Below, piece after piece: positions 392 to 32,900 of a stretch of 64,000 nt of DNA (its first letter is position 1; each line of letters opens with the position of its first letter). Made by a program: the position numbers and the translations under genes. The notes beneath the pieces were generated by a model, which saw nothing but the letters and a program-made list of their open reading frames with translations, searched no databases and was not told where the DNA came from. The stretch comes from Camelus dromedarius (lineage: Eukaryota). The stretch is taken from positions 53,570,001 through 53,634,000 of the forward strand of contig NC_087436.1 in the NCBI RefSeq assembly GCF_036321535.1, read 5' to 3'.

Positions 392-1570
392 AAATGTCAT
401 GCTTCCTAAAGAGAAAAAGATACCCAGGAGATGTGACCATAAAGTATGAGAATTCTGAGGTTTGGGAGAAATCCTAGTGGCAAGAGATGGTACTGATGGG
501 CAAGGTGAAAAGCAGAAGTGAGAGGTCCCAGGTCACAAAAGGACTAGAGAAAACCAAAACAAACATTACTAGTGGACACACCACAGGTCTGATCACCATA
601 TGAACTTCATCTTAAAATATTTCAACACAATCTTTGAGGAACTGATTCCCAAGGCACAGAGCATGAGTGTGCAGAGTGGAGCGTGGTGAAGAGGGGACCC
701 CAAGAAACAAATGGAAGTTATCTGACACACCTTCCATCCCATTTACTTCCCTCCTATATCACAGATGAACTCTCCACACATCTGTAGAGCCAGGATACTG
801 GTTAAATAAGTTTTGTTTCATCTAAAAAATGGAATAATTTTCAGTCAATGAAAAGAATGAAGCAGTTCTAAACACAGTATACTTATATGGAGGTGTCTCC
901 TATAAATATTGTGTGGAAAAAAGTATAATGTGAAAAAAATATACACACTCATGAAAGTATGTTACTATATTATATATACCGCTGTTTATTATATATATTC
1001 AAAAATCTATACACATCCCCAAATGAGTATACCTATACTCAAAAGTAAGTGGTAGTCCAGAGATAAGATTGCTGTAGGTGCTTGCAGGGAACTCATCAGC
1101 TCAACACTAAAGGCTGCAAATTCTCCCATTTCTCTACATTCCTACATTTCTCCCCCCAATATTGGCTACCTCCTAAAGCTTGTTCTCTTGTGGTCACAAG
1201 ATGGCTACAGCCATTTAAGCACTTACATGCACACACAACTTCCAGAAGGAAAAAGACTCTTCTTGAGTTCACTTTCCTAGGAGTGAGGAAATCTTCCTAG
1301 AAGCCCCCTAGTGGATAAGTCTTAATGCCACATTGGCCAGGTTGGCCCAATCCTAAACATAACACTGGAAAATAAATAGCTTAAACCAGTGGTTCTCAAT
1401 CTGGGGTCATTTTGCCCTCCAGTGGGCATTTGGCACTATCTGGAGGCATTTTAGTCACAACTTTGGAGAAGGATGCTACTGGCATCTAGTGGATAGAAGA
1501 AAGGGGCACTGCTAAACATCCTAGAACAAGCTGAACAGCCCTTCACAACCAAGAATTATCTGATCCCAAC

Positions 1571-2748
1571 CCTTGTGCATGCGCTATTGGTGAGAACGTA
1601 AATAGGTACAGTCAAAATGGAAAACAGGATGGAGGTTCCTCAAAAAATTAAAAATAGATGCAGCAATTCTACTTCTGGATATATGTCTGAAGGAAATAAA
1701 TCACTATGTTGAAAGATATCTGCAGCCCCATGTTGATAGCAGCATTGTTTACAGTAATCAAGACACGGAAACAACTTAAGTGCCCATCAACAGATGAGTG
1801 GGTAAAGATTTTAACAAAAAGAAGGAAATCCTGCCGTTTACAACAACATAGATGGACCTTGGGGGTATTATGCTAAGTGAAATAAAAGAGAAAGACAAAT
1901 TCTGTATGATCTCACTTATATGTAGAATCTAAAACAAACAAACCAAAAAACACCAAAACTCATAGAAAAAGAGGTCCGATTTGTGGTTACTAGAGGTGAG
2001 GGGTTAGGGGATGGAAACTGGAGGAAGGTGGTCAAAGGTACAAACTTCCAGCTGTAAGATGAAGTACTTGGAATGTACTATAGAACATTGTGACTACAGT
2101 TAACACTGCTATATTTGAAAGTTGTTAAGAAAGTACATCCTAAACATTCTCATTGTGGGGCCAACTGACATCCTTCAAAGTACAACGAACCCCATTCCTG
2201 GGCTCTCTGATGCCTGCCTTCGATCCCTCAACAGATAAAGTACATTCTTTACTGGGCGTGTTTCCCCTAACACACTAATAGCCCTCATAATGCCTAATTT
2301 CACAATAGTTCAGGCCACCTTATCAGAGTCATAAACCCCACAGACCCCAAACCTCTTATCTCACCTACAACCAATCAGACCTGATTGGCACCTTGTGACC
2401 CTACCTTATAAAAGACCCCAACAACCAGCCCTCAGTGCTCACACGGGCATCTCACAGGCATCTCACATCTGTGCGGCCTGCTGCTGTCTATGGCAGCGTA
2501 ACCTAATAAACTCCTTTTCTATTCTCATCTTTGCCTTTGGTAAATTCTTTAACGACCCACAACACCAGCCCTCCTTGTCCCCTGACACTCATTTCAAGGA
2601 ATAAGTTTTTTATAACTATATGAGGTGATGGATGTTAACTAAACTTATCGTGGTAGTCATTTCACAGTATATGGTGTGATATTATGCTGTACATCTTAAA
2701 TTTATACAGAACTGTATGTCAATTATAGCTCCATAAAACTGAAAAAAA
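1571..2748 (+). mobile_element. L1 3' fragment (ORF2 end/3'UTR), interrupted by a solo LTR
   Basis: L1 hallmarks (ggaggttcctcaaaaaattaaaaataga, ttatgctaagtgaaataa, A tail) with TSD inside MER20. Confidence 0.85.
2154..2587 (+). mobile_element. Solo LTR (434 bp)
   Basis: TG...CA termini, 5-bp TSD CTCAT (2149-2153/2588-2592), TATAAAA ~2408, AATAAA ~2505. Confidence 0.85.
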
Positions 2749-2950
2749 TTATCTGACCCCAAATGTCAGTAGTATAGAGACTGACTGACTTAGACTAATT
2801 ATTTGGGGAAGGACCACTGTTGGATAGTCATTTACCATGACTACTATAACCACCTCGACTTGCATAAGGTTAAGTTTCTGAGCACATCCTTTCAGTTATA
2901 CCTCCCCTTCTAACTTCCTACTCTGGGACATATGCCTCCACTTGTGGTTG

Positions 2951-3993
2951 TGTTAAAGCAGGCAGGTAGCTAGATACGAGCAGAGAAAGGGGGACATGGG
3001 CAAATGGCAGAAAACCACACATCTTGTGAAAAACGGGGGTCCTTGGAGAGATGGTCCTTTCGATCATTATTGTTACCAGGAAAAGGAAAACAAGAATCAC
3101 CTCAATTTTTAGTCACCCGAAAAAAAGATTTTTGACGAGAGACAGAAAGCATGATATAAGCAAAATTTTTATTAGTGAAGTAAAAACAAGTAAAAGATAG
3201 TACGCTCCCAAGAATTGGGAGTGGGCCAATCCAAGAGAGGGAAAATGGCGCCGTTCCTTCGTTTTTCCTGTTTTTATATTCTGGTTTTGTGATTGATTGA
3301 TTGACTGATTGATTGACAACTCAGATTCCCTGTGCTCTGGTTAATTGACAGCTCAGGTTCCTTGTGCTCTGGATTGTTCCTTTCCCCATCCTCTCCCCCT
3401 GCCCAGTGCCCATTTCTATCTAAACTACCTAACATTATGACCTCCATCCAAATGTAACCTTTTGCTTATGATATCCCCATCTGAATGTAACCTTTTGTTC
3501 ATTATGACCTCATCCAACTTCCAGAACAAGACTAAATAAGGACAAAAAATCCCTCCTCCCCACTTTGGACGGTGGAGCTGGGATAAAGATTCCACCTACC
3601 CTCCACCCAGGTTGTCTTTCCTGATCATCCCAGCTCCACCTTCCCAGGTGGGGAGGAGGGATTTTTCCTCCCTATTTAGTCTTGATCGGGAAGTTGGATG
3701 AGGTCCTAAAAAGGTTACATTCAGAGGGGGATATCATAAGCAAAAGGTTACATTTGGATGGAGGTCATAATGATCGAAAGGTTACATTTGGATGGTGGGG
3801 ATTCCCGTCCTGTCCCACCCTTCTGCCTCCAGGACACTTATCAACCCAAAAGGTATGGTTTTTTATCAGTCCAGAGGATCCCATTTTTCTTGTCTGTCCA
3901 AGGACCCCTGTTGTTCACAAGATGTATGATTTTCTGCCATTTGCCCATGTCCCCCTTTCTCTGCTCAGATCTAGCTACCTGCCTGCTCTAACA
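2951..3993. mobile_element. Fold-back element of two inverted ERV1-type LTR 5' portions
   Basis: TGTTAAAGCAGGCAGGTAGCTAGAT... and ...ATCTAGCTACCTGCCTGCTCTAACA; TSD GTTG (2947-2950/3994-3997). Confidence 0.8.
3071..3434 (-). mobile_element. Solo ERV1 LTR (364 bp) nested in the fold-back element
   Basis: TG...CA termini, TSD TTAT (3067-3070/3435-3438); minus-strand TATAAAA ~3272-3278 then AATAAA ~3168-3173. Confidence 0.85.
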
Positions 3994-4132
3994 GTTGGAG
4001 TAGGGGGATCTATGACAGAGACCCCAGGAGGACTACATGGTTAGAGTGGGAGAGGAGTAGGTCACCGAAAGAAGACAATTGCTGTCATGAGAAGAAGGAG
4101 AAAGCTGAGCTATATGTTTATAGACCTAAAGA

Positions 4133-4262
4133 CATGCACAAGGTCCTGGGTTCAATCCCTGGTACCCCCATTAAAAATAATAAACAAACAAACAAACGAA
4201 CAAACAAACAAATCTAATTACCTCCTCCCACCAAAACAATAAAATAAAAAAATTTTAAAAAG
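4133..4262 (+). mobile_element. 5'-truncated tRNA-Ala-derived SINE (vic-1-like)
   Basis: catgcacaaggtcctgggttcaatccc...acctaattacc-like tail, A-rich end. Confidence 0.75.
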
Positions 4263-7200
4263 AATTGTTAATACCTGATGATTTTCTAGATGTGGAAAAT
4301 GGGAGAGACTGTCATTGGAGAGATGATCAGATTTGTAGAAAAAGAGTGACTGGAAGATGATTTTATCATTAACTAGTACGAAGAATTCAGGAAAAGAAAG
4401 ATGTTCAGTGAGGAAGGGGGATTAGTACTGTTTTAGACTCCAATTGCCTTCATAAGCGTTCGTCTGGAAGCAATTATCAGGATTAATTTTACAGGGCTGT
4501 TTGTGAGCGTTATAACCTATTCAGTAACATGTGTCAGCAGTTTTGTTCATCTGATACAGGGTGGTTCTTGGCCTGTAAGTCAGCTACCATATTGTGTTCC
4601 AGGGCTCTGAATATACAGGCAACACCCAATCAAATTTATCTCTCTGGATTTGCTTTTAAAGATGACAGAGAGACCACCACCAACTCCTTCTCCTTTGTTA
4701 TAGTGCAGTTGCTATTCAGGCAGAATATATTGCAACCACTTGGTTTAAGTTTCGTGGTTAAAATCACAATCTAACTGTGCTTCTCTAAAATTATACATAA
4801 GTCATCTTTATAGATTTTGGTAATTTTTACTCAGTATTAGGGGAGTAGGCTCTGTTTTGGCATTTCCCCTTGAATTATTAAAAAGCCTAGGGATATTGTC
4901 AGTTCAAGGAGACCTGTTCTAATTCCAAACTTCTTAGCTGCTGAAGTAAAATGAAAGAAGTGGTCCAGCTCATTAACAACCCTTGTTCTAGGTTATGATT
5001 GTGTCTATTAATGCAACAATGATAGTCTTGCTGGTCCAAATGGGGCCTAAGTCACAATAGGTTTAGACCCTAAAGCTATAGCCTTGAACTTATATTTGGG
5101 AACACACCCTCCAAGACAAATAAGATGTGAGGTGGGGAGGGGGAGAGCTTCCTGGTGAGCCACATGCTGTGCCATGTAGGGTCTGGTCCCTATTCCCAGA
5201 TGCCCCCTTTCTTCATGGCTAATTCCAGGTGCCTTTGGTGCCCTTTACTGCCAGAGGGCATCAGTTGGGACCATCTCAACCAATTAAATAGATTATAATA
5301 AATTGGAATATCAAAAGAGATGAGGTCAAGGTCTCCATTCCCTTCTACTTAGGAAGCTCCTTGTTTTCCAAGAAAATTTCCATATCAAGAGGCCTTAGGA
5401 AGGGCAGTCTTTGTCAGGCCAAAAAATAAAGGGTAAGGAGTGCCTATGTTCTTACATTTACATAACTAAGGGCACGCCAGTGATTCTTCTCAGAAAAAAA
5501 GATCTGCTCTAAAGGGAAATTCTGTCTCCATGTAGAGCAGCAGCTGGCCAATTTTCAAATCTGTTAAAAAGAAAGAAAAAAAAAAGTCAAGTTCTGCCTA
5601 ACCAAGCAACAACACATTACACTTCCTCATTCCATTCTCACTGGGGAAGCTTACTCATCACTTTGTATCATTCTTTGCTTTTAGCTCTTTGAACCACTTA
5701 AATTTACCTGCCACCCCATTTTTGTTACTATGTTTTAAATTACTGGTTACAAGTCTATCTCAACAACCTAGGCCTTAGAAATATTTGAACTAGTCTTAAC
5801 AAACTTTTTCTTGCCTCATATTCCTCTCATTACTTAGTTTTCTTTCTTACCTATCTAGTCTCCAAAGCACTCTGTGACCTCCTACCAGTATCTTACCAAT
5901 TTCATCAGCTCGGATTTTACTTCTTTTGCAGACATTCTTCTCCCAGGGAGTAAAAATTTATTTATTTTTTTCGTTTCAAATCTACAGGACCAATTTCTGT
6001 TACGTTCTGTAGATACTGCTTATTTTTCATCACACGTGACACCTGTTATTTTCTGAGTATATAACATTCCCCTATTTCTGTTGCTTAAAAGACTTTTAAG
6101 AAATCTTGGTTCTTCTATTTTTGCCATTTCTTCACAAGCTTTGGTACACTACAAATATAGTTATAGATATAAAAAATTTCAAACACTAGAAGTGTAGAAA
6201 GTGAAGTCCCCCAATAATCCCTTTCTCCTGCGCATTCCCCAGAGATGACCATTGGTAACATTTTGATATCCTCTGGATATTTTCAAATGACCATTCTTTC
6301 AAAATATGCTTTAGTTTTCACTCTATTGTTAGAGATTACACATCCTATAATGTCTAGGTTGGACAATCTGGTTACTTAGTCATCTTTGTATGCTATTGAG
6401 CTCTCGTCTTGGTTTTTCTTCTATACTAAACTCTCACTTCTTGGTAGCACATCACTCCTCCTTCTCTGTAATCTGCTCTTCCCTCTCCTCCAACTCTCTG
6501 ACTCACACAGAGTCACTACATTGTTACAAATACTACCCCTTTCCCAGGCAGAGTTGCCTGGTCCAAGGGTGAGTTTATAACCCAAGTAAGGCCAATCATA
6601 ACACCAATTGCTGCTGGACCTTGTTGATTGGTCTATGTGTGAGCACCTGACTTAGAACCCTTCCTTCCCGGGGATTACTTCAACATAGGATCATGAGAGC
6701 TAGTGCCATAATAGTGGCAAAGCCTATAATGTCAGTGAGGTTTAGATTTGGGGCAGCCATGTTTTCCTAGAATTTGGAGAAAGCAAGTGTCAATGAAAGA
6801 TTAATCAGTCAATCTAAGAAAGAAATGGAAATTTTTATTCAAGCCAGATTGAGGATTATAACCTGGGAACAGCATCTCAGAAAACTCAGAGAACTATTCC
6901 ACCCATAAGAAGCCAAAACACAGTTACATAAGTTTTCTAAGACAGAGAGCTATACATTAGATGATGTATTATTGATAGTTTACACAATCCAAATTTGCAA
7001 GTACAAAGTGATGGCCATTGTGACCCCTTACAATATCAAGAAGAAATGATATTTTTTGAGGAGTTGTCTTGCTGATGCTAGGAGAATGTTGCTCTTGCAA
7101 GTATAAAGATGTGGTGTGCATATATATATATATAAATATATATATGTATACATATATATATAAAATATATGTATACATATATATAAAAAATACACACACA

Positions 7201-7270
7201 CATACAATGGAATATTACTCAGCCATGAAAAAGAATGAAATGATGCCATTTGCAGCAATATGGATGGATC

Positions 7271-8423
7271 TGATACCAATAGGACCCTGCAGGCCCCACT
7301 GCCTTATCCCTGCCCCTTGTGTATAGAAAACCTGAAGTCTCTCAGGCCTCCCTAAGTCATAAAAGAGCAGGCTCAAGCAGTTGATGATTAGGACAAATCT
7401 TCACACAGTGGGGGATGGCGACAACTCTGACTGCCTATCTCAATGATCAACTGAGATTACTTCCCTGTTTCCCTTTAAAACTGTCATGGCTAAGCAGAAT
7501 CTTCAGAGATGGTTTTTAGCGGGCACTGGGTCCACCAGATTGCTGGCATTCTGATTAAAAGCAACTTTCCTTTTTGTTACCAAAGCTGTTGCCACCAGGA
7601 TAATACCCTTGCCCCTACTCAAATAGAAACAAATTACCCTTATTTAAGTCTCAGGAGGCAACTGCAAAGAGAAGGAACAAGAACTGGTTAGAAACTGTGA
7701 AACCCAAGATGGTGGAGGATTGGACTTCCAGTGGACCTTGAGCCTCATTATAAGCTCATTGTAATGTATTAGTATGCTAAATGACACACCCACCAAAACC
7801 ATGACAGTAGAAATTGCCATAATAACAACTGGAAAAACCCATACAAGGAAGGGAGAAAAAAAGGTGATTGGCTGCAGCACACCTGGAAGGAGCTCATGAT
7901 GTCAGAGGCTTCTAATAAATCCATGTGGCCTGACCTGGAGCTGGAGCTGTCTTGGCTGATGACTCCCCACTCAAGCACTTACTTCCTTTCTCCTCTTTTT
8001 GAGCAATAAAGCAGCTTTTTGCTTTGTTTCTCTGCCTCTGTTGGTGAATTCTTTCACAGCCAGCGGCAAGGATTTTGGTGGGCTTCCTAATTTAGGGGTC
8101 TCACTGTAGTAGAGAATAACCTTTGTTTTCTTGGATGTACAGGGACACCGTGACCTAGCCTACGAGGATGGCTGCAAGAACAAAGAATGCCTGCAGCAAG
8201 AAGATTACAACAATCAACCACACCCCCTCCCTTGTGTTTTTGTATAAAAGGAGCCTATATTCTGACTAGAGCAGGATGGTTCTCCAAGACTTTAGTCTGC
8301 CATCCTCTAGGTCTGCCAGATTTCCAAATAAAGTCACTATTCCTTGTCCCAACACCTCGTCTCCCAATTTATTGGCCTGTCTTGCAGCAAGTTTGGACTC
8401 AGCAACATCACTATCCCCTAACA
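7271..8423 (+). mobile_element. Composite LTR block inserted in L1
   Basis: TG...CA termini, TSD GATC/GATG, several internal poly(A) signals. Confidence 0.7.
8105..8407 (+). mobile_element. Solo ERV1 LTR nested in the previous block
   Basis: TGTAG...GCAACA, TSD TCAC (8101-8104/8408-8411), TATAAAA and AATAAA. Confidence 0.8.
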
Positions 8424-8706
8424 GATGTAGAGATTATCATTCTAAGTGAAGTTAAGTCTGACAGAGAAAGACAAATATCACATGATACCATTTATATGTG
8501 GAATCTAAAAAATGATACAAATGAACTTATTTACAAAACAAACAGACTCACAGACATAGAAAACAGACTTACAGTTACCAAAGGGGAAAATGGGCAGGGA
8601 TAAATTAGGAGATTGGGATTAGCAGATACAGAGTATTATATTTTCAATAACAAGGGAGCTGTATTCAATAACTTGTAATTACCTATAATGGAAAAGAATC
8701 TGAAAA

Positions 8707-8708
<2 letters not shown>

Positions 8709-8784
<76 letters not shown>
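8709..8784. repeat. Compound microsatellite (AT)n(GT)n
   Basis: Perfect AT run then GT run inside the L1 3'UTR. Confidence 0.95.
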
Positions 8785-9971
8785 AACTGAATCACTTTCT
8801 GTACACTAGAAACTAACAAAACCTTGTAAGTCAACTATTTCAATTAAAAACAAATTCATCATATCATTTTTCTTGCTGACAAACTTTGAAACAGGAATAA
8901 TAAGGTCTTATTGGGTTCCTAGTAAACAGGTACAATAAAAGTACTATACCTAAACTGATGACTCTAAAGACATATCTGTATTAATTAAACCAACAAGCTT
9001 AGGCTAACTCTAATACCAGATATTAATTCAATATTGTCTGTTTCCCAGATCATGTGAATATGAAATTCATTCTGGCCAATTTCTTTTATATTCGTAAGTA
9101 TTTATATAAGTGTTTAGTTTCTTTTAAGTCAATCAAGTAGAGCTCTTTTACAAATTAATCTTGGCGATACCACACATCTACAACACATATATAGATGCAT
9201 GCGAACACACAGACATAGTTTGTTCCAAATCACAGTTCCCATTCCAAAATGTCAGCCAGGAATTAAGTGCAACAATAACCCAACAGTTACAAAAGAGGTT
9301 GGATTCCAGTTGGTTTTCTAGCAGATGGAACATTTCAAGATCATCTGCCTAGACGGCTAAACTGTTTTACTAATATTTATGGAGAAGATATTTAAGATTT
9401 CTGTTTGTCTTTGACAAGTCAAGTTCCAAATTACCCCCTTCCTGAAATTTGTATTTTTAAAAAATGGCAGAGGTAAGCGTTCCTAGAGAAGACCAAGTAG
9501 AATATTTGTATCTCAAAAGCATAGGAGGAGAAAGGAAAATTCCTTCTAGGAGGATTTTGTTCCCTTACGGCCAGATATTTTTTTTTTCTCTCACTACTTA
9601 CAAGCCTCTTAAGATAAACGGAGGTTTTAAGAGAGATAAAAGGATTGGTGGACTCTGGACTATTTCTGGAGCCACAGTTCTGGTCCTGTAAAGACTAAAT
9701 TTGTGAAATAAAGACAGTTGTTCTTTTCCTCAAAGAATTCGGTGGCCACCTCAATGATTTAACAGGACTGACACATCCATTCACCTATGTTGGAATGCTT
9801 TAATTTTCCCTCATTGAGCTTAGGGGAGAAGGCCCCCGACAAAATTTCCATCAGGATCCAAATATCAGCTATGGTCAGTCTAGTCAGACTGATTGCCTCC
9901 CATCTTGGTAATCCATTTATAAACACTTTTGAGGATCCTCCTGGGGGTCAAAAAATTCTTTAACTATAGAA

Positions 9972-10085
9972 AGGAAGGGTATAGCTCAGTGGTAGAGCAA
10001 ATGCTTAGCATGCACAAGATCCTGGGTTCAATGCCCATTACCTCCATTAAAATAAAGAAATAAACCTAATTTATGCACCCCCCCA
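9972..10085 (+). mobile_element. vic-1-like SINE
   Basis: A box tagctcagtgg, B box ggttcaatgcc; TSD aaaaattctttaactat. Confidence 0.85.
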
Positions 10086-11400
10086 AAAAATTCTTTAACT
10101 ATGGCCCTCAGTTCTTTCTATGATCTGAAAAGGCTTGCCTTCAGCCTAGCATGGTCCCATTTCTAAAGGTACCTATTTAATTGTGTTTTCTGAGTGGAAA
10201 GGCAATTCAGAGAGATTACTAGAATGAGTACTCAAAGAAGGATAGAAGGGAGTAGTAGTCTACATTTCAGGTATGCTTTTTATCATTAACCTTTCATTAG
10301 TCTTCTATAACAAATTTTTCAATAAGGCTGTTTTGGAATTTTGAAGCCTCTTGGGGCTTCTGGATTCCTATTAAGATAGGTACCATAGTTTAAGATGAGA
10401 GTTCTCTAAAATTTTAGCAATTTAGAAGTTTCTCCAATTCCAAGGATCCAAGGAGCTAGCCCTACAAATATTTTCCCCCACTAATCTAATTTTAGAAAAG
10501 AGAAAAACTCTTAACCACTGTTGTTTCCCGTAGACCCTGCAAGCACAGATCCAGAAGACTGCCAGCTTTAACTGCTTGCTTAAAATCCATTTTTGGAGTG
10601 CCAAAAGAACCCCATCATGGCCATTTCAGTGCCCAGTTTCCTTTAGTTCCCAATAAAGTACTTGTAAGCGTACATAAACCCAGCTAGTATTTCCATAAGT
10701 GGCTGTTTGCATGGGAGCTGTTTGGCATTTAAGGCACAATTTCTCAGTATTAATTTCATAGCCTAATTCAGGTATGTCATGAGATATGATCTGAACAACT
10801 TTTGAGGACAGTGTGGTAGATGCATGTGAGCTGCTTCTGAGTCTAGCTCTGCAAGGAGTTATCCTTGGGTCAGTTTGACTCTTTTATGTGACTTGGTTTC
10901 TCTCTGTGACAGTCTAAAACCACCAAGGGTTCTCAGAGTGCTAATTATCAGCCTCTGTTGTGCACCCCCAGATGAGCAGTATTTACTTAATGGTTGTAAT
11001 GGGTCTCCCCTATTCTTCAGAGCTGAATAGTTCAGTCTTTCATTTCACTAGTAAAAGTTTTCTTCAGACCATCTATCAACTCTTTTTTTTTTTCAATTTA
11101 AACCAAATGTAACAAAAACCCTGCCAATTATGTTTCCCTGGACCACTTGCCCAGACCCTGACTAGGTCCTTCCTAGGAAATATACCAGTGCCCCTTAAGA
11201 CTCCAAGTCTTAAGTGAAAAGAGCTTGAAGAAAATTTTCAGGATCATCACTCAAACAACGAGATCTGGGTATCAGGAGAACTCACCAGACCACCTGAGTA
11301 GTTCTGAGACGCTGGTGGGGCTCAATGGGCCAGTGCTTGGTATCAAGTGCCAGTTCCCAGTAGACCCCAAGTGTCCCCTGGTGGGTATCTCTGGTGGATA

Positions 11401-11418
11401 GTCTTGCCAACTATGCCA
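11401..11418 (-). promoter_or_regulatory. Retroviral primer-binding site, tRNA-Ser
   Basis: Minus strand TGGCATAGTTGGCAAGAC versus Ser PBS TGGCGTAGTCGGCAGGAT (14/18; two differences are CpG transitions), 4 nt from the LTR end. Confidence 0.7.
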
Positions 11419-11949
11419 TCCATGTCAACAAAGAATTAATCAGTCAATCTAAGAGAAAAGCGGAAATTTTTATTCATGCCTAATTAAGGATTATAACCTG
11501 GGAACAGCATCTCAGAAAACTCAGAGAACTATTTCTCATGCTAGAAGCCAAAACACAGTTATATACACTTTATGAGACAGAGAGCTGTACCTTAGATGAT
11601 GTATTATTGACAGTTTATACAATCCACATCTGCAAGTACAAAGTGATGACTGTTGTGACCCCTTACAATATCAAGAAGAAATGTTATCTTCTAAGGAGTT
11701 GTCTTGCTGATGCTAGGAGAATTTGCGCTTTATGGTTCAGCAGGTATTTCTGCAGGTGGGGAGGTTTGGTTGATGCATAATGCAAATACACAATGTACAG
11801 TGAAGGGAGAGAGGAGGCTGAAGTGCAGAGAAAATTTTTTATGTTTAAATTTTTTTTGTCTTGTCATAAAATATAAATTTTATTTCACACAAGTTTCTAA
11901 GGAGAGAGAATGAAGCAAACATGTAGAGAGCAAATAAGAGAAAATAATT

Positions 11950-12350
11950 TTTTAATTCTTATTTTTTATTGAAGTATAGTCAATTTACAGTGTTAGTTTC
12001 GGGTGTACAGAAAATTGATTCAGTTATGCATATACATACATGTCTATTCTTTTTCAGATTCTTTTCCATTATAGGTTATTACACGATAATAAATATAGTT
12101 CCTTGTGCTATAGAGTAGGTCCTTGTTGTTTATCTATTTTATATATAGTAATATATATCTGTTAATCCCAAACTCCTGATCTATCCCTTCCCCTCTTTTC
12201 CCCCTTGGTAACCATAGTTTGTTTTTTATGTCTGTGAGTCTATTTCTGGTTTATAAATAAAAATTGTTGTTTTTTTTTCAAGATTCCACATGTAAGTGAC
12301 ATTGTATAATATTTGTCTTTTTCTGTCTGTCTTACTTCACTTAATATAAT
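11950..12350 (-). mobile_element. L1 3' end
   Basis: Reverse-complement L1 3'UTR (ttattgaagtatagt...aatatagttccttgtgctata...agattccacatgtaagtga). Confidence 0.85.
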
Positions 12351-13070
12351 AAAGGAGACAGAGAAAGTTTTTAATTCATTCCAGTTCCCTGTTCCTGAGA
12401 ATTAATTGCATTCTTGTTTTTTTTTCAAGTTCTTCCAATTAAAAGATATTCACAAGTAATTCCCCTCTTTTTGCTTATACTAAGTCCCCAAATGACAGAT
12501 CCTCTTTAGTTTTAGAAAACTCTTATTTCATTCCTCCCACCTCTGAGACTTTGCTTGGTTTTGTTTTGTTTTTTGTCCCTCACCCCCACCCCCCGCCTTT
12601 TTTTTTTAAAGGTGAGGCTATGGAGGCACAGAAGGGTTGAGTAATTGGCAAAGGTCACACAACTAGTAAGTGGCAGACTGGAACTGGAGCTGTAGCAATT
12701 TGACTGTAGTGTTTCTCAACACTAGCTACATATTTGAATCACCTACAGACCTTTTAAGTAATACAGATGTCTGAGACATTGCTTTGTTTAGGTAATGATA
12801 AAACATTCTGAGGGATGTCATTAATATTATACAGGCTGTTCTGAACTTTATTTTCACTAATAGGATCCTCAAAAGTTGTAAATATAACATGCTATTTCTT
12901 CAGGGAGTACAATCAACTAGATCAGACAACCAATACTTTTTCCTTGTTACCAGTGCACGAATGGCAACGTGCACAAGCAGATACACAATCAGGATCATGC
13001 CGTGTTCTTTGGGCTGAAAATCACCAAGACTGATTTAAGAAAGTGTCATACAAACAGATTTCCTCTTCTT

Positions 13071-13254
13071 TTTTATTTTTTTAAATTAAAATTTTTTTTT
13101 TTATTTTAGGGGAGGTGATTAGGTTTATTTTTTTTTTAATGGAGGTACTGGAGGTTGAACCCAGGACCACAAGCATGCTAGGTACTGGAGGTTGAACCCA
13201 GGACCACAAGCATGCTAGGTATGTGCTCTACCACTGAGATATACCCTCCCCACT
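13071..13254 (-). mobile_element. vic-1-like SINE with internal 37-bp tandem duplication
   Basis: TSD cagatttcctcttctt (13055-13070/13255-13270). Confidence 0.85.
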
Positions 13255-13477
13255 CAGATTTCCTCTTCTTATACAACTATAATTTTCATAAATTAAAGCA
13301 CATCTTTCATCAGTTCCATTCAAAATCTCTTTATGAATTACATATTGTATTAATTACTAGTATCCAAACTAGTAATTCCATTGGCATGTTCTAACCAAGT
13401 ACCATAACGTTAATTTCTTGAAAATTTTCTTGGAGCTGACAAACAGTAATCATTTTAAATCAGAAAGATTACTAACC

Positions 13478-13601
13478 TTTTTTTTTTAAAGGTGAATATT
13501 GATTTATTACTGTTATTATTTTTTTGATGGAGGACTGGGGATTGAACCCAGGACCTTCTGCATGCTAAGCAAGCGCTCTGCTGCTGAGCTATACCCACCT
13601 G
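13478..13601 (-). mobile_element. vic-1-like SINE
   Basis: ggggattgaacccaggacc...catgctaagc...ctgagctatacc. Confidence 0.8.
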
Positions 13602-13876
13602 CCTACTAACCCTTGTAAGCTAAATATGACAACAATATATAAAAATATTTTTAAAGGTCCAATATTTAGGAAGAATGTTTTGGGATTGTGGGGGGAGGTT
13701 GGAGGGGGGTATGGTCTAGGAGGAATACAAAAGGGGTTGCTACAACATTTGCAACAATTTACTTGTTTAATAAATATAACATCTGTGTTTGGAGGAGATT
13801 TGTTGAGCAAGAGTCTAACTCTACCCTAAGCTGGTTAGTCCCAGATATTATTTTTGGATGGCTATTCTAGTGTCAC

Positions 13877-14420
13877 TGGGATGATTAATTTTATCTGTCA
13901 ACTTGACTAGGCTAAGGGATTCCCAGATAGCTGGTAGGACATTACTTCTGGAAGTGTCTGTGAGGGTGTTCCTGGGTAGCATTTGAATGGTATACTAAGT
14001 AAGATAGCTTCATTGGTGTGGATGGGCATCATCCAATCTGCTGAGGGGCTGAATAGAACCAAAAGATGGAGGAAGGGTGAATTTGATCTTTACTTGCTCT
14101 GGGACATTCCTATTCTGTCCTTGGACATAGGAGACCTGGTTCCCCAGCCTTTGGACTAGGACCAGGACTTAAACTATCAGCCTTCTGATTCTTGGGCCTT
14201 TGGACTCAAAATTGGACACACGTTTGCTCCTCTGGTTCTCAGGCCTTCAGACTCGGACTGAATTATACCACTGGCTTCCCTAGTTCTCCAGCTTGTAGAC
14301 CACAGATTGTGGGTCTTTCTGGCCTCCATAACTGTGTGAGCCAATTCCTATAAGGCACATATATATTCCTATTTAAGTCTCCTGTTGGTTTTGTTTCTCT
14401 GGAAAACCCTGACTAATACA
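13877..14420 (+). mobile_element. MLT2 (ERVL) solo LTR
   Basis: Typical MLT2 ends (gattaattttatctgtcaacttgact... / gtttctctggaaaaccctgactaataca); 5-bp TSD GTCAC/ATCAC. Confidence 0.85.
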
Positions 14421-15039
14421 ATCACATAATGTGACTTAGTGGGGAGGTCTTGCCCTAGTAGCCAGGGGATAGAATTAGGAGGTGGAGATTGGAAACTATA
14501 GGGTCAATTTTTCTGAATGCTGAATTTTTACCTGTTTTCAATCCAAGCAAAAATAGTAGGGACATTAGGAATAACATTTCAGTATTTGGTCATTTCTAAA
14601 TATAGAAACAAGTAAGCTATCCATCTAAGTATAAAAACATTCAGCCGCATTCTCAAACTGCATGATCCTAAATGACAATAATAATCCTTGGAGTCATGAC
14701 ATATGAATTATTTACATAACAATTTAGAAAAAATATGGAAATTACAGCTTAAGTTGCCAGACGAGTCCCATTGCAACTTAATACTTTTCACTCTTTGATT
14801 TCCATATTCAGTTTAATATATGTACTCAGGGTTTTATGACATATTATGCCATTATATATTTTCTAATTTATTCATAAATTATAATTTAATGATAAACTTC
14901 TCCAAATCAATTCAAATGCTGGTACATATTTTTTAAAATATTTCTTTAAAAATATACTAAATATAGGCCTTCTTCTATACCTATGTATCAAACTATAACT
15001 ATTCAAAATTTTTAACTATTATCAATGTATATTGATTGT

Positions 15040-18000
15040 TGCTGGTTGGGCTTCCTGTGAAGTAGACCCTGACACGGGGCTTGGAGCAACAAGCCCTTCT
15101 TTAAAGGTGAATTTTGGTGGCTCACCATTGTGTTGATCACAGTTTACCCCTTCTACTGCTCAGATCCACTTTTTCATGTATATTCTGGAACACTTCATCC
15201 TAAATCCAGTAGACCTATTTTCCAGGGGAAATTTAGAAGTAGAAGATGAGTGAGAGGAACAGCAGCTGTAGTCAGCGCTGAGACTGAGCTCATCATATCC
15301 CTACTCTACCACATCATCCACTCAAGATTCTTCTCACCCTCAGAGAACACCTTTGCTAGTTTTGGTAGTTTGCCCCATGGTTTGGCCCAGGGCCTTATCC
15401 TATAGGTCTGATTTCCAGGGTGTCATGCCCTTCTTTGGTACATAATAGTTTATGTACATGTCCATTTGCCATGAAAATTGGGCAGAAAGTATCAAGAGGC
15501 ACCCAAATGGATCTCCTGAGCACCAAGTATATATTCCCTTCCTGGCTGGTCATTAAAGGTCAATTTCTCCTGACAGAGTGATGATTCCTCTCTTTGTCTG
15601 CTAAGTTGGAGTTTGCCATTGGCAGTAGCTGGATCAGCCTTGCTAAGTGAAATTCATCTTTTTGGGCCTATACGCAGACTCTTTTCCATCTTACCATGGG
15701 TATTCTATTCATGCACCCATTGTTCAGGCACTGAGGTAACTGATGACAGGGGCTGGCTAACATCAAATGCCCAAGTTATTTTTTTTTTCTTGCTTGTTTA
15801 TGTCTTTTCCATGATGGATGCACTCTGATGGACATTAACATGGGATACAAAGATCCTCATACTTTGTGTTGGCTTTCATATGTTTATCCACATACTGTAT
15901 CCCAGACCCACTTGACTTTAATCTTCTACACTTCCTTCAGGTTCCTGTTCAGCTAATCAGGCCATTCACCATTGATGTGAGTTTATATATATTCTAATCC
16001 TGGGCCACTCATCTTTCCACACAAAGTGGAGGACCCAGGGCACAATGTACCCTTTGGAAGGAATTTCACTCATCAGTGTTTTTTAAGGTCACACCCATGT
16101 GGGCCTGTAGTGACTTTAATTTTCAGCTTGCATCCACATATTGATTTAACCCAGTCATGATTCAAGCTGGAGTTTTCCTCCTCCATCTGCTAATCATGAG
16201 GAATTTCCCATATAGCCATAACGTGAGTTGAAGGAAGGGAATTGATGCAAACTTCTTGCGCCTTCTGGTCCTGCTTATGCAGGATCCCAGATATACCATT
16301 TTCACCTCATAATGAACCATTGCTAGGCTGCCTAACCTTGTGACTTGGTGGAATAGGTCTGACAGAACCCAGCTTATCATGGGTAGTTAAAACCATACGG
16401 TCACTTGATATCCCTGATCAAGTACTTTTCTTCTACCAAGGTCTAATAGCATGCCAGAAATTGTTTTTCAAAAGGAGTAAAATTCTCTGCTGCCAACGTG
16501 TGGTCTTGCTCTAGAACTCCAGAGGACTGCATTATGATTATCCCACTGGGACTTGACAAAAATTTCACATGGAATCTTTTACCACCATTGATACCTCTAA
16601 CATCATAGATCTTCCAGGTCATATGGCCAAAGAGGCAGACTGTACCACAATCTGATCCTACTTCAAAACACTTTCTCTTCTGGGCCCTACTCAAAGTTAG
16701 CAGCCTTTCTTATCACTTGATCCCAGATGTAGAATATACTGATTTCAGAACCTGAAGAAGCATGTCTGATGTTGTATTTCCTTTCCCATTGTGGAAGATG
16801 TGAGATGTCATAGTTGGTCCTTTAGTTTGGATGGGACATCCTGGCATGCCCTTGACTATCAGACCCCTAAAAATTGTATTGTCATGGCAGGCTCATGAAT
16901 CTTGTGCACGTATGTCTTGCCAAATTCTCCAATGTGCTAGCCCTTTTTTGATCATCCTATTTGATTAGAATGATGTCATTGATAGTGGGTCGATGTGATG
17001 CTTTGCAAGATATCCAGACATTCAAAACCTCATTGGACGATATTATGACAGAAAATACAATATACTGCATTATAACATAGCCCAAGGGCAAAATTATAAA
17101 TGTACACTGTTCTGTCCATGAAAATGCAAAGTATTTCTAATCCCCATTTTGGTAGGGATGGAAAAGAATTGTCACCAAGTCAGTGTATATATACACACCA
17201 TGTACTAAGGCCATATTAATCTGCTACAGCAAAGATACTATGCCTGGCACAGCAACAGCAATTCGGGCTTCCACTTGATTGAGTTTCAGCAGTCTAATGT
17301 CAAGTTTTGGGATCTATCCAGTTTTTGCATGGACCAGACTTGTGAATTAAATCAGGGTATGATGGGGACCATCATCCCTAGATCCTTTTGAATTTTAGAA
17401 ATAGTACTAATTATTACCATCCTTTCCAGAAATATATATATACTACTTTTGTTTTATCATTTTAACTGGAATCAGGTGGGGAGGGGGAACAGTTTTAGAA
17501 GTTTTCACTTGGCCTTCCCCACTATGATAGCTCTTCACCTAAGGGCCAAGGTTCCAACTGCCAAGTATGTCTATTCTAGTTACATATGTGAGGAATGGTA
17601 AAATAACCACCAGCAGGTTGCTGGATACAGTGGACTCACTGTGAGTTTGACCTTGACCAGGATTCCATTTATTACCTGAAACCCATATGCCGTCATTCTA
17701 AGAGGGGAGCTAGGATGCTGAGTCCAACAATGTTAGAAATCTTTGGGTATTCCCTTTTTCAAAGTACACATTTACTCAAATAAATGAACAGAGATTCATT
17801 TGGAGAAGGCCTGGGGAAATCATTTCCCCATAACTGGCCATGGTTCCTTTCTCCTAGGCACCCAACTCCTGCAGTTGATGAATTTTGAGCCTGAAAACTG
17901 ATTTAGATACAGGAATTGGGCAAAAGATTGTGATGTATTTTGGTACACCTGCTTTCAGCCTCCTTATCGTCCATTATTGATTTTTTGATGGTATAATTAG

Positions 18001-29900: not shown

Positions 29901-32900
29901 TTCATAAGTGGAATCAACTTAGTCAACTGATCCAGTGTTTCCTTTTTTATCCTTTAGAACATGTTTTGTATTGCAAAGAGTTTATAAAAGTAATTAAGTG
30001 TTAAATACATATTGACAAATATGTCATTATATAATTCAGTGTTTTTTTGCTAACCAAAGACTATTGATTGACAAGCAGACCTTGCAAATTCATATGCTTA
30101 TTTTTGCTCTAAGAAAGAACCCAGTTTATCAAAGTTCATTTGTAAACCAAACAAATTCAGTTCTGGTGTCTACATTTTAAATTTCACTTCATTTTATACT
30201 TTTAATTTATATTATGTTTAATTATTTGAGTTAGAGAAGTCCAATTTAGAAAGAGACATAGTTTACACGTGAAAGTTTCTTGGAGAATAAAATGTTAAAT
30301 GAATTATGTAACTTCAATCCTATTTGGATAGAAAATTCTACGCAAAAACTTAAAAAAAAAGTATTGTATTTAATTTATATAAAGTTGAGAATATAGTGGA
30401 AGTACCAGCAGTCCTGGACGTAACAAGGAACCTGTGAAATAGTTGTTTTGGCAATGGTAATTTTTTCTTTTACTTCTCTGCTACTATTGGAAATTCCCTT
30501 GCTCTTCTGATAGCTGTGAGTTGCTCCATCTTTATCATAGAGAATTTTTTTTTATCAACTATTAACATTTTAATTGAAATTGTATTACATACAATTTTTC
30601 TCTTTTTCATATATATTTTTATTGAAGTACAGTTTACAATGTGTCAATTTCTGGTATACAGCATAATGCTTCAGTCATACATGAACATACCTATATTCGT
30701 TTTCATATTCTTTTTCGCCATAAGTTACTACAAGATATTGAATATAGTTCCCTGTGCTATACATTATGAACTTGTTTATCATAGAGAATTTTTTGAGAAG
30801 TGGAATCCAGCATGAATTACCGTCCAATTTTAATATCTGTATGAACTTCAAGACTGAAATTTCTAAGTCTAGCTGAAAAATGGGAATAAGAGATCTTACA
30901 GTGATTTTGATTTTCCAATGCAGTATTCACAGATGACAGTTTGTCAGTTATGAAGAACTGTAAGTTAAAGCCAATATTCTGTGAATGTGTTGCATGCAGG
31001 TATATCCATGCATAGGTATACTCACCTTTGCCACTCTTTGCTGGGAGTAACACATAGCTGACTTTTCATTATCATTACTTTGCCATTAGCAAGAAATGCA
31101 ATGCTTATGACCCAAAACCCACAAATAACTCTTTCTACTCCTAATGTAACCATAAAAATCACTAAAGTGTCTCTTTCAAAGTCCCTATTCATGTCTAGAG
31201 AAAAAAGGAAGGATCATTTTTGTCTCTTGTGCACTAAATAGTTATTTCTAGTCACTTCTAGAACCTGAGAATGTGGTTAGAAAAATAAGATTTTTTTCCC
31301 TAGTTGTAACTTTTGATACATAGTCCTTAGAAACAATGAGAAACTGTAGTTTTGGCTCACTGTGTTCTATAAGTTTCTATGGAATTATGAAATATCTTAC
31401 CAGCATTGAATTTCCAGGGATGTGGATCTAGAGTTCTAAGTAACTGACTTAATAAAAAGATCTTTTAAACACCATCTGGAGGGTCAGGGAGGGTATAGCT
31501 CGAGTGGTAGAGTGCATGCTTAGCAACACAAGGTCTGGGTTCAGTTCCCAGCACCTCCTCTAAAAATAAATAAATATATAAACCTAATTACCCCCTCTCC
31601 AAAAAAATAAAAAATCAAAAAACACACAATCTGTAACAGGATTTTTTTTTTTTATGTAGGCAGATCTTTATTTGTTAATAATAGCTAACTCATAGCACTT
31701 TACATATGTCAGGCACCACACCAAATGCTTTACATGTTAATTGATTTAATTTTTACAGCAGCCCAGTGAACTGGGGATTATTCTTATTTCACAGATGAGG
31801 AAACCAAGGTGCAGAAGAATTAACTTTGGTGACTAACTCGCCCAAGATCATACAGCTAATAAGTGTTGGGGTGGAGTTCAAACTAAAGCAGCCAAGTTCC
31901 TGAGTGTGTGTTCTTAACCTTAACACTGTCTTTCCAATAGGCGTATAATGTGCATTCCTCATGTGACTTGGAAAAATTACTTTGATAAACAATGGATATT
32001 CTGCTACAACTCTGAAAGAAAATGTGTGGACATTTATTTGTTTTTAGTTGCTGTTGTACTACAACATTTGATAACTGATAACCAAAGTACAGAATCTTAA
32101 ATAGCACCTTGATGTAATAGTTAATACTGATCATACTTCATTAACTGGTCTAGAACTTTGTGGGTAGATTTCTGAAGAAAGTAAATGATCACTTCCTTCT
32201 CCTTCCCATTTGATTTTTGGACCTTGTCAATTCAAATGATTTGCCAGTTAAAATTTTTTGCTAGTGGAAACGGTGTAGTAAATTTTTAAGAATTTGAGAA
32301 TATGGAATTTATTGTCAACTACCTTTGTACTGTTAATAATTTTGGTGAAAGGTCTGGCAAAGAGTTAAGAAGCTGTTATGAAAAAGTTTCAGTTATAATA
32401 TGTTGCTAGTCTTAAAAGTAAATTATTTGGGGAAGATAGTATTAAGACCATAAGATTTCTCTGAAACCCCATGGCTTTGCAGTAATCTTTAAAGTTAAAA
32501 TGTTTTTAGTTACATATTTTAAACTTGTTATTACAAAATGCTGTACAGAAATTATCTTTTTGTGCTGTGCTTATTATAGTGACAGTCATTAAGATTTTAG
32601 TATTTATGTGAACTAATATTAGTACTGTTAAAAAAATTCTTAATGGGGTTTTGCATGGTCATCTTAGGGCAACAGCTTATACAACCACAGAGTCTGATAA
32701 CTTCAAGTATTAACTAAGACAAATATTTTAATAGAAAGATAAAATGTCCATCTTTTTCTTGTAGGGTTTTTTTTTTCCCCAAATCTTAATATTTTGGGAT
32801 AAATACTTATGAGTGAGAAACTAAAACTTAACCAAAACTATTAAAAGCCCAGCTCTTTACCTTCAGTAAAATTCTTACCTTAAGGATAAAATTGATGCAT

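What the first reader, a model, noticed from the sequence alone, without database searches (positions are those of the whole stretch)
2951..3993. Fold-back LTR dimer: two inverted LTR 5' ends inside a single 4-bp TSD
Seen: after removing the nested solo LTR (3071-3434, TSD TTAT), the remaining ~680 bp is one long imperfect palindrome. Positions 2951-~3047 pair with ~3897-3993. Positions ~3056-3070 plus 3439-3584 pair with 3627-~3781 around a ~42-nt spacer. The right arm has ~115 bp that the left arm lacks. Both outer ends are the same LTR start (TGTTA(A/G)AGCAGGCAGGTAGCTAGAT), and no U5-type end or poly(A) signal is evident. The unit is flanked by GTTG...GTTG. Known: ERV1 integrase makes 4-bp TSDs, and a normal solo LTR has one U3 end and one U5 end. 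Inference: either an aberrant U3-U3 reverse-transcription product was integrated, or this is a family of MITE-like, LTR-derived palindromic elements moved by retroviral integrase. It could also be a source of long dsRNA.
Basis: partly seen in the sequence, partly recalled or inferred. Interest (0 to 1): 0.8.

Follow-up and report, generated by a model that had tools for sequence, protein, structure and literature searches.

The report
One-off mirror-image retroviral LTR insertion
Upstream of a mammal's EIF4E gene, two mirror-image copies of the same end of a common retrovirus-derived repeat sit inside one 4-base insertion scar, and their central joint showed up at no more than single-copy level in the sequencing runs tested, so this is likely one old integration accident and not a new mobile family.

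Summary
The structure is real. Two inverted arms (18 substitutions in 256 paired bases) lie between GTTG...GTTG. A later LTR (3071-3434, TTAT duplicated) sits in the left arm only. The arm belongs to an LTR family with hundreds of copies: about 200 contigs per run leave the outer end into unrelated flanks in each of three organisms. The centre is not shared: depth 16, 0 and 0 in three DNA runs, against 1,494-17,292 in the neighbouring arm bins. A palindromic family with this joint, or a palindromic family consensus, is therefore not supported. The centre is not a plain fold-back loop. About 22 bases (3591-3612) are a patchwork of sequence 20-40 bases away (18 of 5000 shuffles as good), the pattern of synthesis-dependent end joining. 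Best reading (0.55): integrase inserted two identical LTR ends, probably U3, and host repair joined or trimmed the inner ends. Main rival (0.27): a host template switch rebuilt half of a normal solo LTR. The empty site could not be tested. One RNA-run contig covers the centre, but dsRNA is not shown. This is a curiosity that suggests a genome-wide test.

The parts
2947..2950 (+). Left copy of the 4-bp flanking direct repeat (GTTG), presumed target-site duplication
   Evidence: Sequence; chance agreement about 0.5%; empty site not seen
2951..3051 (+). Left arm, outer part; starts at the LTR terminus TG
   Evidence: 92% complementary to 3893-3993
3052..3055 (+). 4-nt filler in place of 111 nt (3782-3892 of the right arm); the joint forms a 7-nt direct repeat with 3038-3044
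3056..3070 (+). Left arm, short middle part; ends in the first TTAT
   Evidence: 100% complementary to 3767-3781
3071..3434 (-). Nested complete solo LTR of another family, TG...CA, with TATAAA at nt 157 and AATAAA at nt 262 of 364 on the minus strand; TTAT duplicated (3067-3070, 3435-3438)
   Evidence: the right arm shows the uninterrupted site
3439..3590 (+). Left arm, inner part, with two 33-bp tandem units (3444-3509). Pairing with the right arm ends at 3584; likeness to family copies to about 3590 is judged by eye
   Evidence: tables 4 and 7
3591..3612 (.). Central filler: overlapping copies of 3634-3649, overlapping by a few bases the point where family likeness of the right arm begins
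   Evidence: 21 of 26 bases of 3591-3616 covered by local words of 6 or more; 18 of 5000 shuffles and 0 of 621 real 26-mers as good. Depth 16.3/0/0 at 3580-3599 in DNA runs
3611..3993 (-). Right arm: about 380 nt of the LTR from its terminus, with three 33-bp tandem units (3693-3793); no poly(A) signal; likely U3
3994..3997 (+). Right copy of the 4-bp flanking direct repeat (GTTG)

Best explanation
This is a single old insertion in which two mirror-image copies of the same LTR end lie inside one 4-base direct repeat, likely because a retroviral integrase joined two like (probably U3) ends to one target site and host repair then likely joined or trimmed the inner ends. The two ends would have come from one template or from near-identical templates: a fold-back reverse-transcription product, or two viral DNAs held in one integration complex. 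The starting palindrome may have been longer and perfect. [quoted passage not shown] Later events were the 111-nt deletion and the nested LTR in the left arm, and point changes. With no poly(A) signal and no U5 end the unit should be immobile. Shown: anatomy, high copy number of the arm, single-copy level of the centre, templated filler. Inferred: integrase as the maker of both outer joints, U3 identity, order of events, age (about 11-25 million years at recalled rates of 1.5-2.5e-9 per site per year).
For: Both outer joints fall exactly on the family's terminus: 150, 161 and 153 contigs leave at 3993 and 49, 46 and 48 at 3994, agreement 0.34-0.37, i.e. unrelated flanks. The 4-bp repeat has about a 0.5% chance and is the gammaretroviral length (13 of 15 XMRV sites, PMC2857682 passages). 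When only one end is joined by integrase, flanking duplications are usually much larger or replaced by deletions (PMC5041404 passages), so a clean 4-mer suits two integrase joints. RSV integrase concerted-integration assays use donors with a single U3 end (PMC3579926 methods passage), so two U3 ends of separate DNAs can be paired in vitro. The arms differ by 7.0% (K2P 0.074), less than the 9.1-16.2% between the right arm and 15 long family contigs. Both arms share a letter at 3731 held by only 5-10% of family depth. [quoted passage not shown] Asymmetric centre deletions are the usual fate of inverted junctions in mice (PMC8701086 passages).
Against: The empty site was not seen: the right flank had depth 0 from 4020 on in all 4 runs. 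No in-vivo precedent for a U3-U3 insertion turned up in six searches. A host template switch gives the same end product. U3 identity rests on tandem repeats and the lack of a poly(A) signal; the direct test was not significant. The arms differ at 10 of 24 family-variable places examined, and the left arm has the family's letter at 5 of 6 places where the right arm's letter is rare; this fits later mutation but gives no support to one template. The long contigs used for comparison are biased towards divergent copies. Retroviral reverse transcriptase can also make templated fillers (recalled), so the end-joining step is not uniquely identified. The centre had no depth in 2 of 3 DNA runs, which the read filter may or may not explain.
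Confidence: 0.55

Rival explanations
1. A normal solo LTR was inserted first and made the GTTG duplication. Later, host DNA replication or repair switched template inside it, copied the first ~390 bases backwards, and returned to the original strand at the LTR's short terminal inverted repeat, so that the R-U5 half was replaced.
For: Template switching makes reverse-complement repeats, and forward interstrand switches are part of the model (PMC8794818 passages); this allows the right arm to start beyond the left arm's end. LTR ends supply a 5-nt inverted repeat as a landing site (the nested LTR has TGTTA at both ends). The filler shows polymerase switching at this spot. Three clustered changes perfect a 7-bp stem at 3651-3672. 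Earlier unchecked notes list other inverted duplications in this genome.
Against: Copying must stop within a few bases of one terminus and land within a few bases of the other, with no physical end to stop it. About 390 nt is long for the short switches of that model (recalled).
Confidence: 0.27
2. The family repeatedly makes palindromic like-end dimers, either as a mobile MITE-like subfamily with this joint or as recurrent fold-backs with different joints.
For: A 6-bp stem with a 4-nt loop lies 25-45 nt from the centre in the right arm and could be a fold-back hot spot. Only 15 of 35 joint rows and 24 of 563 loose-end rows were shown, and contigs break inside repeats, so other fold-backs could be hidden.
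Against: Centre depth 16.3, 0 and 0 against 1,494-17,292 in neighbouring arm bins; none of the 15 joints shown changes strand. No poly(A) signal or U5 end for an RNA route. Integrase is not known to excise integrated DNA (recalled). No look-alike in earlier scan notes.
Confidence: 0.08
3. Two independent insertions of the same family, facing each other, were fused by a deletion, and GTTG on both sides is chance.
For: The family has hundreds of copies and the region is LTR-rich (three LTR-type insertions within 2 kb). The arms differ at 10 of 24 family-variable places.
Against: It needs a 0.5% coincidence, both arms cut within about 20 nt of the same LTR position, a shared rare letter at 3731, and arms closer to each other than to 15 other copies.
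Confidence: 0.04
4. Assembly artefact: a chimeric fold-back read or a misjoin.
For: No listed contig spans the whole stretch, and 2 of 3 DNA runs have no depth over the centre.
Against: The arms differ by 18 substitutions, two indels and a nested LTR with its own duplication. An independent RNA-run contig covers 3573-3772 with 3 differences and bridges the filler-to-right-arm joint (37 letters on its short side), though not the left joint (18 letters). One DNA run has single-copy depth over 3560-3599.
Confidence: 0.01

Closest known systems
Solo LTR of a class I (ERV1, gamma-like) endogenous retrovirus
   Same: TG...CA termini, 4-bp flanking repeat, tandem repeats of U3 type, high copy number of the arm sequence.
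   Different: Both ends are the same LTR end; no AATAAA and no U5 end; the centre is a templated filler. The family name was not determined; a resemblance of the start to MER50-like LTRs is recalled and untested.
Aberrant retroviral integrations (ASLV with one bad end; HIV under integrase inhibitors; PMC5041404, passages read)
   Same: Integrase and host repair together make an abnormal provirus.
   Different: There one outer end is host-joined, with large duplications or deletions. Here both outer joints are exact and the host-type joint is internal.
In-vitro concerted integration of two single-U3-end donors by RSV integrase (PMC3579926, methods passage read)
   Same: Two U3 ends joined at one target site.
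   Different: A test-tube reaction; here a germline-fixed product whose inner ends are joined.
Palindromic transgene junctions stabilised by asymmetric centre deletion (PMC8701086) and SD-MMEJ complex templated insertions (PMC2943611); passages read
   Same: Off-centre joint with a filler of overlapping local copies.
   Different: Here the palindrome is bounded by LTR termini and a 4-bp repeat.
Template-switch inverted repeats (PMC8794818, passages read)
   Same: One event makes a reverse-complement copy with a short spacer.
   Different: About 390 nt long, and both far switch points would have to fall on LTR termini.
MITE
   Same: Inverted termini, flanking duplication, no coding capacity.
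   Different: Made of retroviral LTR sequence; the unit is not multi-copy; no transposase partner known.

Membership tests
ERV solo LTR | TG...CA termini | tested here: met
ERV solo LTR | Short target-site duplication (4 bp for gamma-like viruses) | tested here: inconclusive
   GTTG on both sides, about 0.5% by chance; empty site not covered
ERV solo LTR | U3-R-U5 order with a poly(A) signal and two different ends | tested here: not met
   Same end twice; no AATAAA or ATTAAA in the arms
ERV solo LTR | Arm belongs to a dispersed repeat family with a sharp terminus | tested here: met
   199, 207 and 201 contigs with loose ends at 3993-3994 in three DNA runs
ERV solo LTR | Match to a named ERV1 LTR in Dfam or Repbase | not testable with these tools
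   No repeat library available
MITE-like mobile palindromic family | Many copies sharing the internal joint, with different flanking duplications | tested here: not met
   Centre depth 16.3/0/0 against 1,494-17,292 in arm bins 3620-3659
MITE-like mobile palindromic family | Terminal inverted repeats and a flanking duplication | tested here: met
MITE-like mobile palindromic family | An enzyme that excises and reinserts the unit | not testable with these tools
   None known for retroviral integrase (recalled)
Simple self-primed fold-back (intrastrand switch) | The copied arm holds only sequence present in the template arm | tested here: not met
   Right arm follows family copies to about 3611; left arm stops about 15-20 nt earlier in LTR position (partly by eye)
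SD-MMEJ / Pol theta-type joint | Insertion templated from sequence near the joint, in overlapping pieces | tested here: met
   21 of 26 bases; 18 of 5000 shuffles; 0 of 621 real 26-mers
SD-MMEJ / Pol theta-type joint | Dependence on polymerase theta rather than reverse transcriptase | not testable with these tools
   Ancient event
Long dsRNA / ADAR substrate | One transcript through both arms, with A-to-I editing absent from the same animal's DNA | tested here: inconclusive
   One unstranded RNA-run contig, 3573-3772; one A>G assigned to it by depth arithmetic; no matched DNA

The most novel reading that the evidence does not exclude
Retroviral integrase pairs two U3 ends in the germline often enough that mammalian genomes hold a small, overlooked class of head-to-head U3 dimers inside single 4-bp duplications, each with its own end-joined centre. 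These would be fossils of fold-back or two-molecule integration, and ready-made long hairpins that are transcribed and edited.
Probability: 0.15. Interest if true: 0.62.

Novelty: new variant of a known kind. Interest (0 to 1): 0.3.

Why it matters
As a single locus it is a curiosity: an inert, old LTR remnant about 23 kb upstream of EIF4E. Its value is as a search image. Like-end LTR dimers with one clean duplication can be counted in any long-read mammalian assembly. Their number, against inverted LTR halves that end at internal points, would measure how often integrase pairs the wrong ends in vivo. I know that reaction only from test-tube assays, and my six searches found no report of it in genomes. 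Such units would also be one-step sources of long hairpin RNA.

Tried and rejected
Own-genome search and file: no genome is held for this window. An 18-mer from the terminus gave 0 hits in viral contigs and 5 loci in metagenome contigs. All 5 are chance: best matches 18-28 nt, bacterial-type CpG content (L001 read). Rfam at gathering threshold over 2000-5000: 0 matches. Earlier scan notes: no look-alike by sequence or by words. Empty-site test: the right flank had no depth from 4020 to 4130 in 4 of 4 runs; the tool filters human-like records, so this proves nothing. Zero centre depth in X2 and X6 cannot be read as absence of the element for the same reason. Only 4 of 24 listed runs and only 3560-4130 were laid. 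A first global alignment of the left half mis-spread the right arm over the nested LTR and was replaced by segment alignments. The U3-orientation test against the nested LTR was not significant. PMC8605555 (Camelus TE survey, passages read) has 0 occurrences of 'palindrom' or 'solo'; whether the window is camelid was not established. No supplements were read; Dfam, Repbase and most subscription journals could not be searched, so the element or the class may be described there.

Full report
1. Observation. The repeat finder gives inverted arms 2951-3051/3893-3993 (92%), 3502-3584/3627-3709 (89%), 3418-3496/3709-3787 (91%) and 3056-3070/3767-3781 (100%), with 42 unpaired bases in the middle. Segment alignments give 238 matches, 18 substitutions (8 transitions, 10 transversions) and one 6-nt gap: 7.0%, K2P 0.074. 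The right arm has 111 nt (3782-3892) where the left has 4. GTTG flanks both TG/CA termini; chance agreement is about 0.5%. The nested element 3071-3434 has TTAT on both sides, and the right arm preserves the uninterrupted site. It is a complete LTR on the minus strand, with TATAAA and AATAAA 105 nt apart. The inner palindrome folds far better than shuffles (z -25).

2. Copy number. No genome was held, and collection scans gave only chance hits. Public runs of three coded organisms hold 0.53-0.62 of the words of 2600-4400 (14 of 24 rows). I laid 4 of these 24 runs (three DNA, one RNA) on 3560-4130 at 80% likeness. The arm attracted 1316, 1381 and 1463 contigs in the DNA runs. At the terminus 150, 161 and 153 contigs run on into unrelated sequence at 3993, and 49, 46 and 48 at 3994. 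The arm is thus the end of a dispersed family with at least some hundreds of copies; the tool warns that summed depth is not copy number. In bin 3580-3599 depth is 16.3, 0 and 0, against 1,494-2,616, 1,555-2,498 and 10,318-17,292 in the two bins 3620-3659. Listed single contigs mostly have depth 6-13, 9-19 and 56-67. The centre is therefore present at one or two contigs' worth in one run and unseen in two. The zeros may come from the filter that also blanked the right flank in all four runs, but that filter let over 1300 arm contigs through in each DNA run, so a family sharing this joint would have shown. None of the 15 joints shown (of 35) changes strand; 20 were hidden. Family copies part from the window at about 3611-3626 (table 7; records 1, 17 and 26 carry 127 unmatched letters there; depth arithmetic). 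The palindrome is not the family's normal form.

3. The centre. The right arm's family likeness reaches about 3611; the left arm's ends at 3584-3590 (the last six bases judged by eye). The right arm therefore holds some 15-20 LTR bases that the left arm lacks, which a plain self-primed fold-back cannot give. Between them, 3591-3612 is built of words from 3634-3649: 21 of 26 bases of 3591-3616 are covered by local words of six or more, matched by 18 of 5000 shuffles and 0 of 621 real 26-mers of like GC (the other three settings gave 6-23 of 5000 and 1-2 of 621). This is the complex templated insertion described for SD-MMEJ (PMC2943611, passages). The left-arm deletion joint also creates a 7-nt direct repeat. 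Inverted transgene junctions in mice mostly carry asymmetric centre deletions (PMC8701086, passages). I infer that the centre was sealed or revised by end joining. Reverse transcriptase jumps are an alternative source (recalled).

4. One template or two. I examined the 24 family-variable places in the paired region among the 40 rows shown (of 252). The arms agree at 14 and differ at 10. At 6 places one other letter holds over 80% of family depth; the left arm has the family letter at 5 and shares the rare letter at 1 (3731; 5-10%). The arms (7.0%) are closer to each other than the right arm is to 15 long family contigs (9.1-16.2%; 9 of 24 listed DNA pieces dropped as the same contig in another run; long contigs are biased to divergent copies). 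This favours identical or near-identical arms at origin, moderately. The differences are clustered, so the age of about 11-25 million years (recalled rates) is rough.

5. Which end. The arms have 33-bp tandem units and no poly(A) signal in about 380 nt on either strand, as expected of U3. The arm start resembles the nested LTR's U3 start, but not significantly (200 of 2000 shuffles). I put U3 at about 0.85. A U5-U5 reading would change the source of the ends, not the rest.

6. Mechanism. Best (0.55): integrase joined two like ends at one site and made the 4-bp repeat; host repair sealed or trimmed the inside. A 4-bp repeat is the gammaretroviral norm (PMC2857682, passages). Host-joined outer ends usually leave large duplications or deletions (PMC5041404, passages). 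RSV integrase pairs single-U3-end donors in vitro (PMC3579926, methods passage). The near-equal arm lengths suggest a fold-back product or a longer palindrome that collapsed. Rival (0.27): a template switch in an already inserted solo LTR that returned at the terminal inverted repeat (model in PMC8794818, passages). It predicts the same sequence, but needs two landings on the termini. Unchecked notes of other inverted duplications in this genome raise its prior; I did not test them. Recurrent or mobile dimers (0.08), two fused insertions (0.04) and artefact (0.01) follow.

7. RNA. The unit lies 22.9 kb upstream of the EIF4E start codon; no gene over it was identified in the window. One RNA-run contig covers 3573-3772 with 3 differences at depth 44.3. 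One difference is A to G at 3723, a site paired in the hairpin. The run also holds 334 family contigs, may contain DNA, has no strand and no matched genome. This is a hint only. Rfam found nothing.

8. Comparison and novelty. It works like an aberrant provirus remnant, but fails the solo-LTR test (no R-U5) and the MITE test (not multi-copy). Six searches for a precedent (listings only) found no description of a like-end LTR dimer in one duplication. The library lacks most subscription journals, and Dfam and Repbase could not be consulted. A Camelus TE survey does not mention palindromes (PMC8605555, passages). Species and family name remain undetermined. No supplements were read.

9. Verdict. 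Real, old, at most single-copy in the runs tested, probably inert: a new variant of a known kind. Interest 0.3. The boldest open reading, a small genome-wide class of such dimers, has probability about 0.15 and would merit about 0.6.

Noticed in passing
window 2154-2587: Another TG...CA LTR-like insertion (434 bp, + strand, with TATA-like and AATAAA words) flanked by a 5-bp repeat CTCAT (2149-2153, 2588-2592), 360 bp left of the finding. It appears to interrupt an L1-like 3' end (recalled likeness).
   Followed up: partly
window 3651-3672: Three clustered right-arm differences (3667, 3668, 3672) perfect a 7-bp local stem that is imperfect in the left arm; looks like one short template switch.
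   Followed up: partly
window 3559-3577 and 3634-3652: The right arm has a 6-bp stem with a 4-nt loop near the centre; three clustered left-arm differences (3564, 3566, 3570) break it. The central filler is copied from this same stretch.
   Followed up: partly
both arms: Arm differences are clustered (475 of 20000 random placements as clustered) and poor in transitions (8 of 18; p 0.04 against an assumed 0.67), so they are a poor clock. Unexplained.
   Followed up: partly
window 3723: The RNA-run contig over the centre (X15, record 9, depth 44.3; the other 7 listed pieces of that run have 3.3-25.3) carries G where the window has A paired with T at 3482, assigned by depth and end-distance arithmetic. 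Editing or an allele; G is also the letter of about half of family depth; its other two differences were not shown.
   Followed up: partly
window 3644-3970 (family copies elsewhere): All 15 joints shown of 35 are internal deletions of 7-245 nt, 14 of them at about single-contig depth and most shared between organisms, so the left arm's deletion is ordinary for this family.
   Followed up: no
window 3948-3951: 67, 80 and 82 contigs in the three DNA runs share only the outermost ~45 nt and then diverge: a sister LTR subfamily with the same terminus.
   Followed up: no
window 3994: The 46-49 contigs whose loose ends start after 3994 agree slightly more (0.36-0.37) than those at 3993 (0.34); a few may share one flank, such as internal or duplicated sequence.
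   Followed up: no
window 26891-60500: EIF4E gene on the + strand: start codon 26891 in a CpG island, exon-like frames near 48389, 53693, 56561-56683 (eIF4E in PDB, E 1.6e-21), 58624 and 60429.
   Followed up: partly
window 4133-4258: Short repeat with an A-rich tail and six other matching places in the window (near 10009, 13100-13170, 13540, 23870, 31530-31620, 45200); SINE-like by eye.
   Followed up: no
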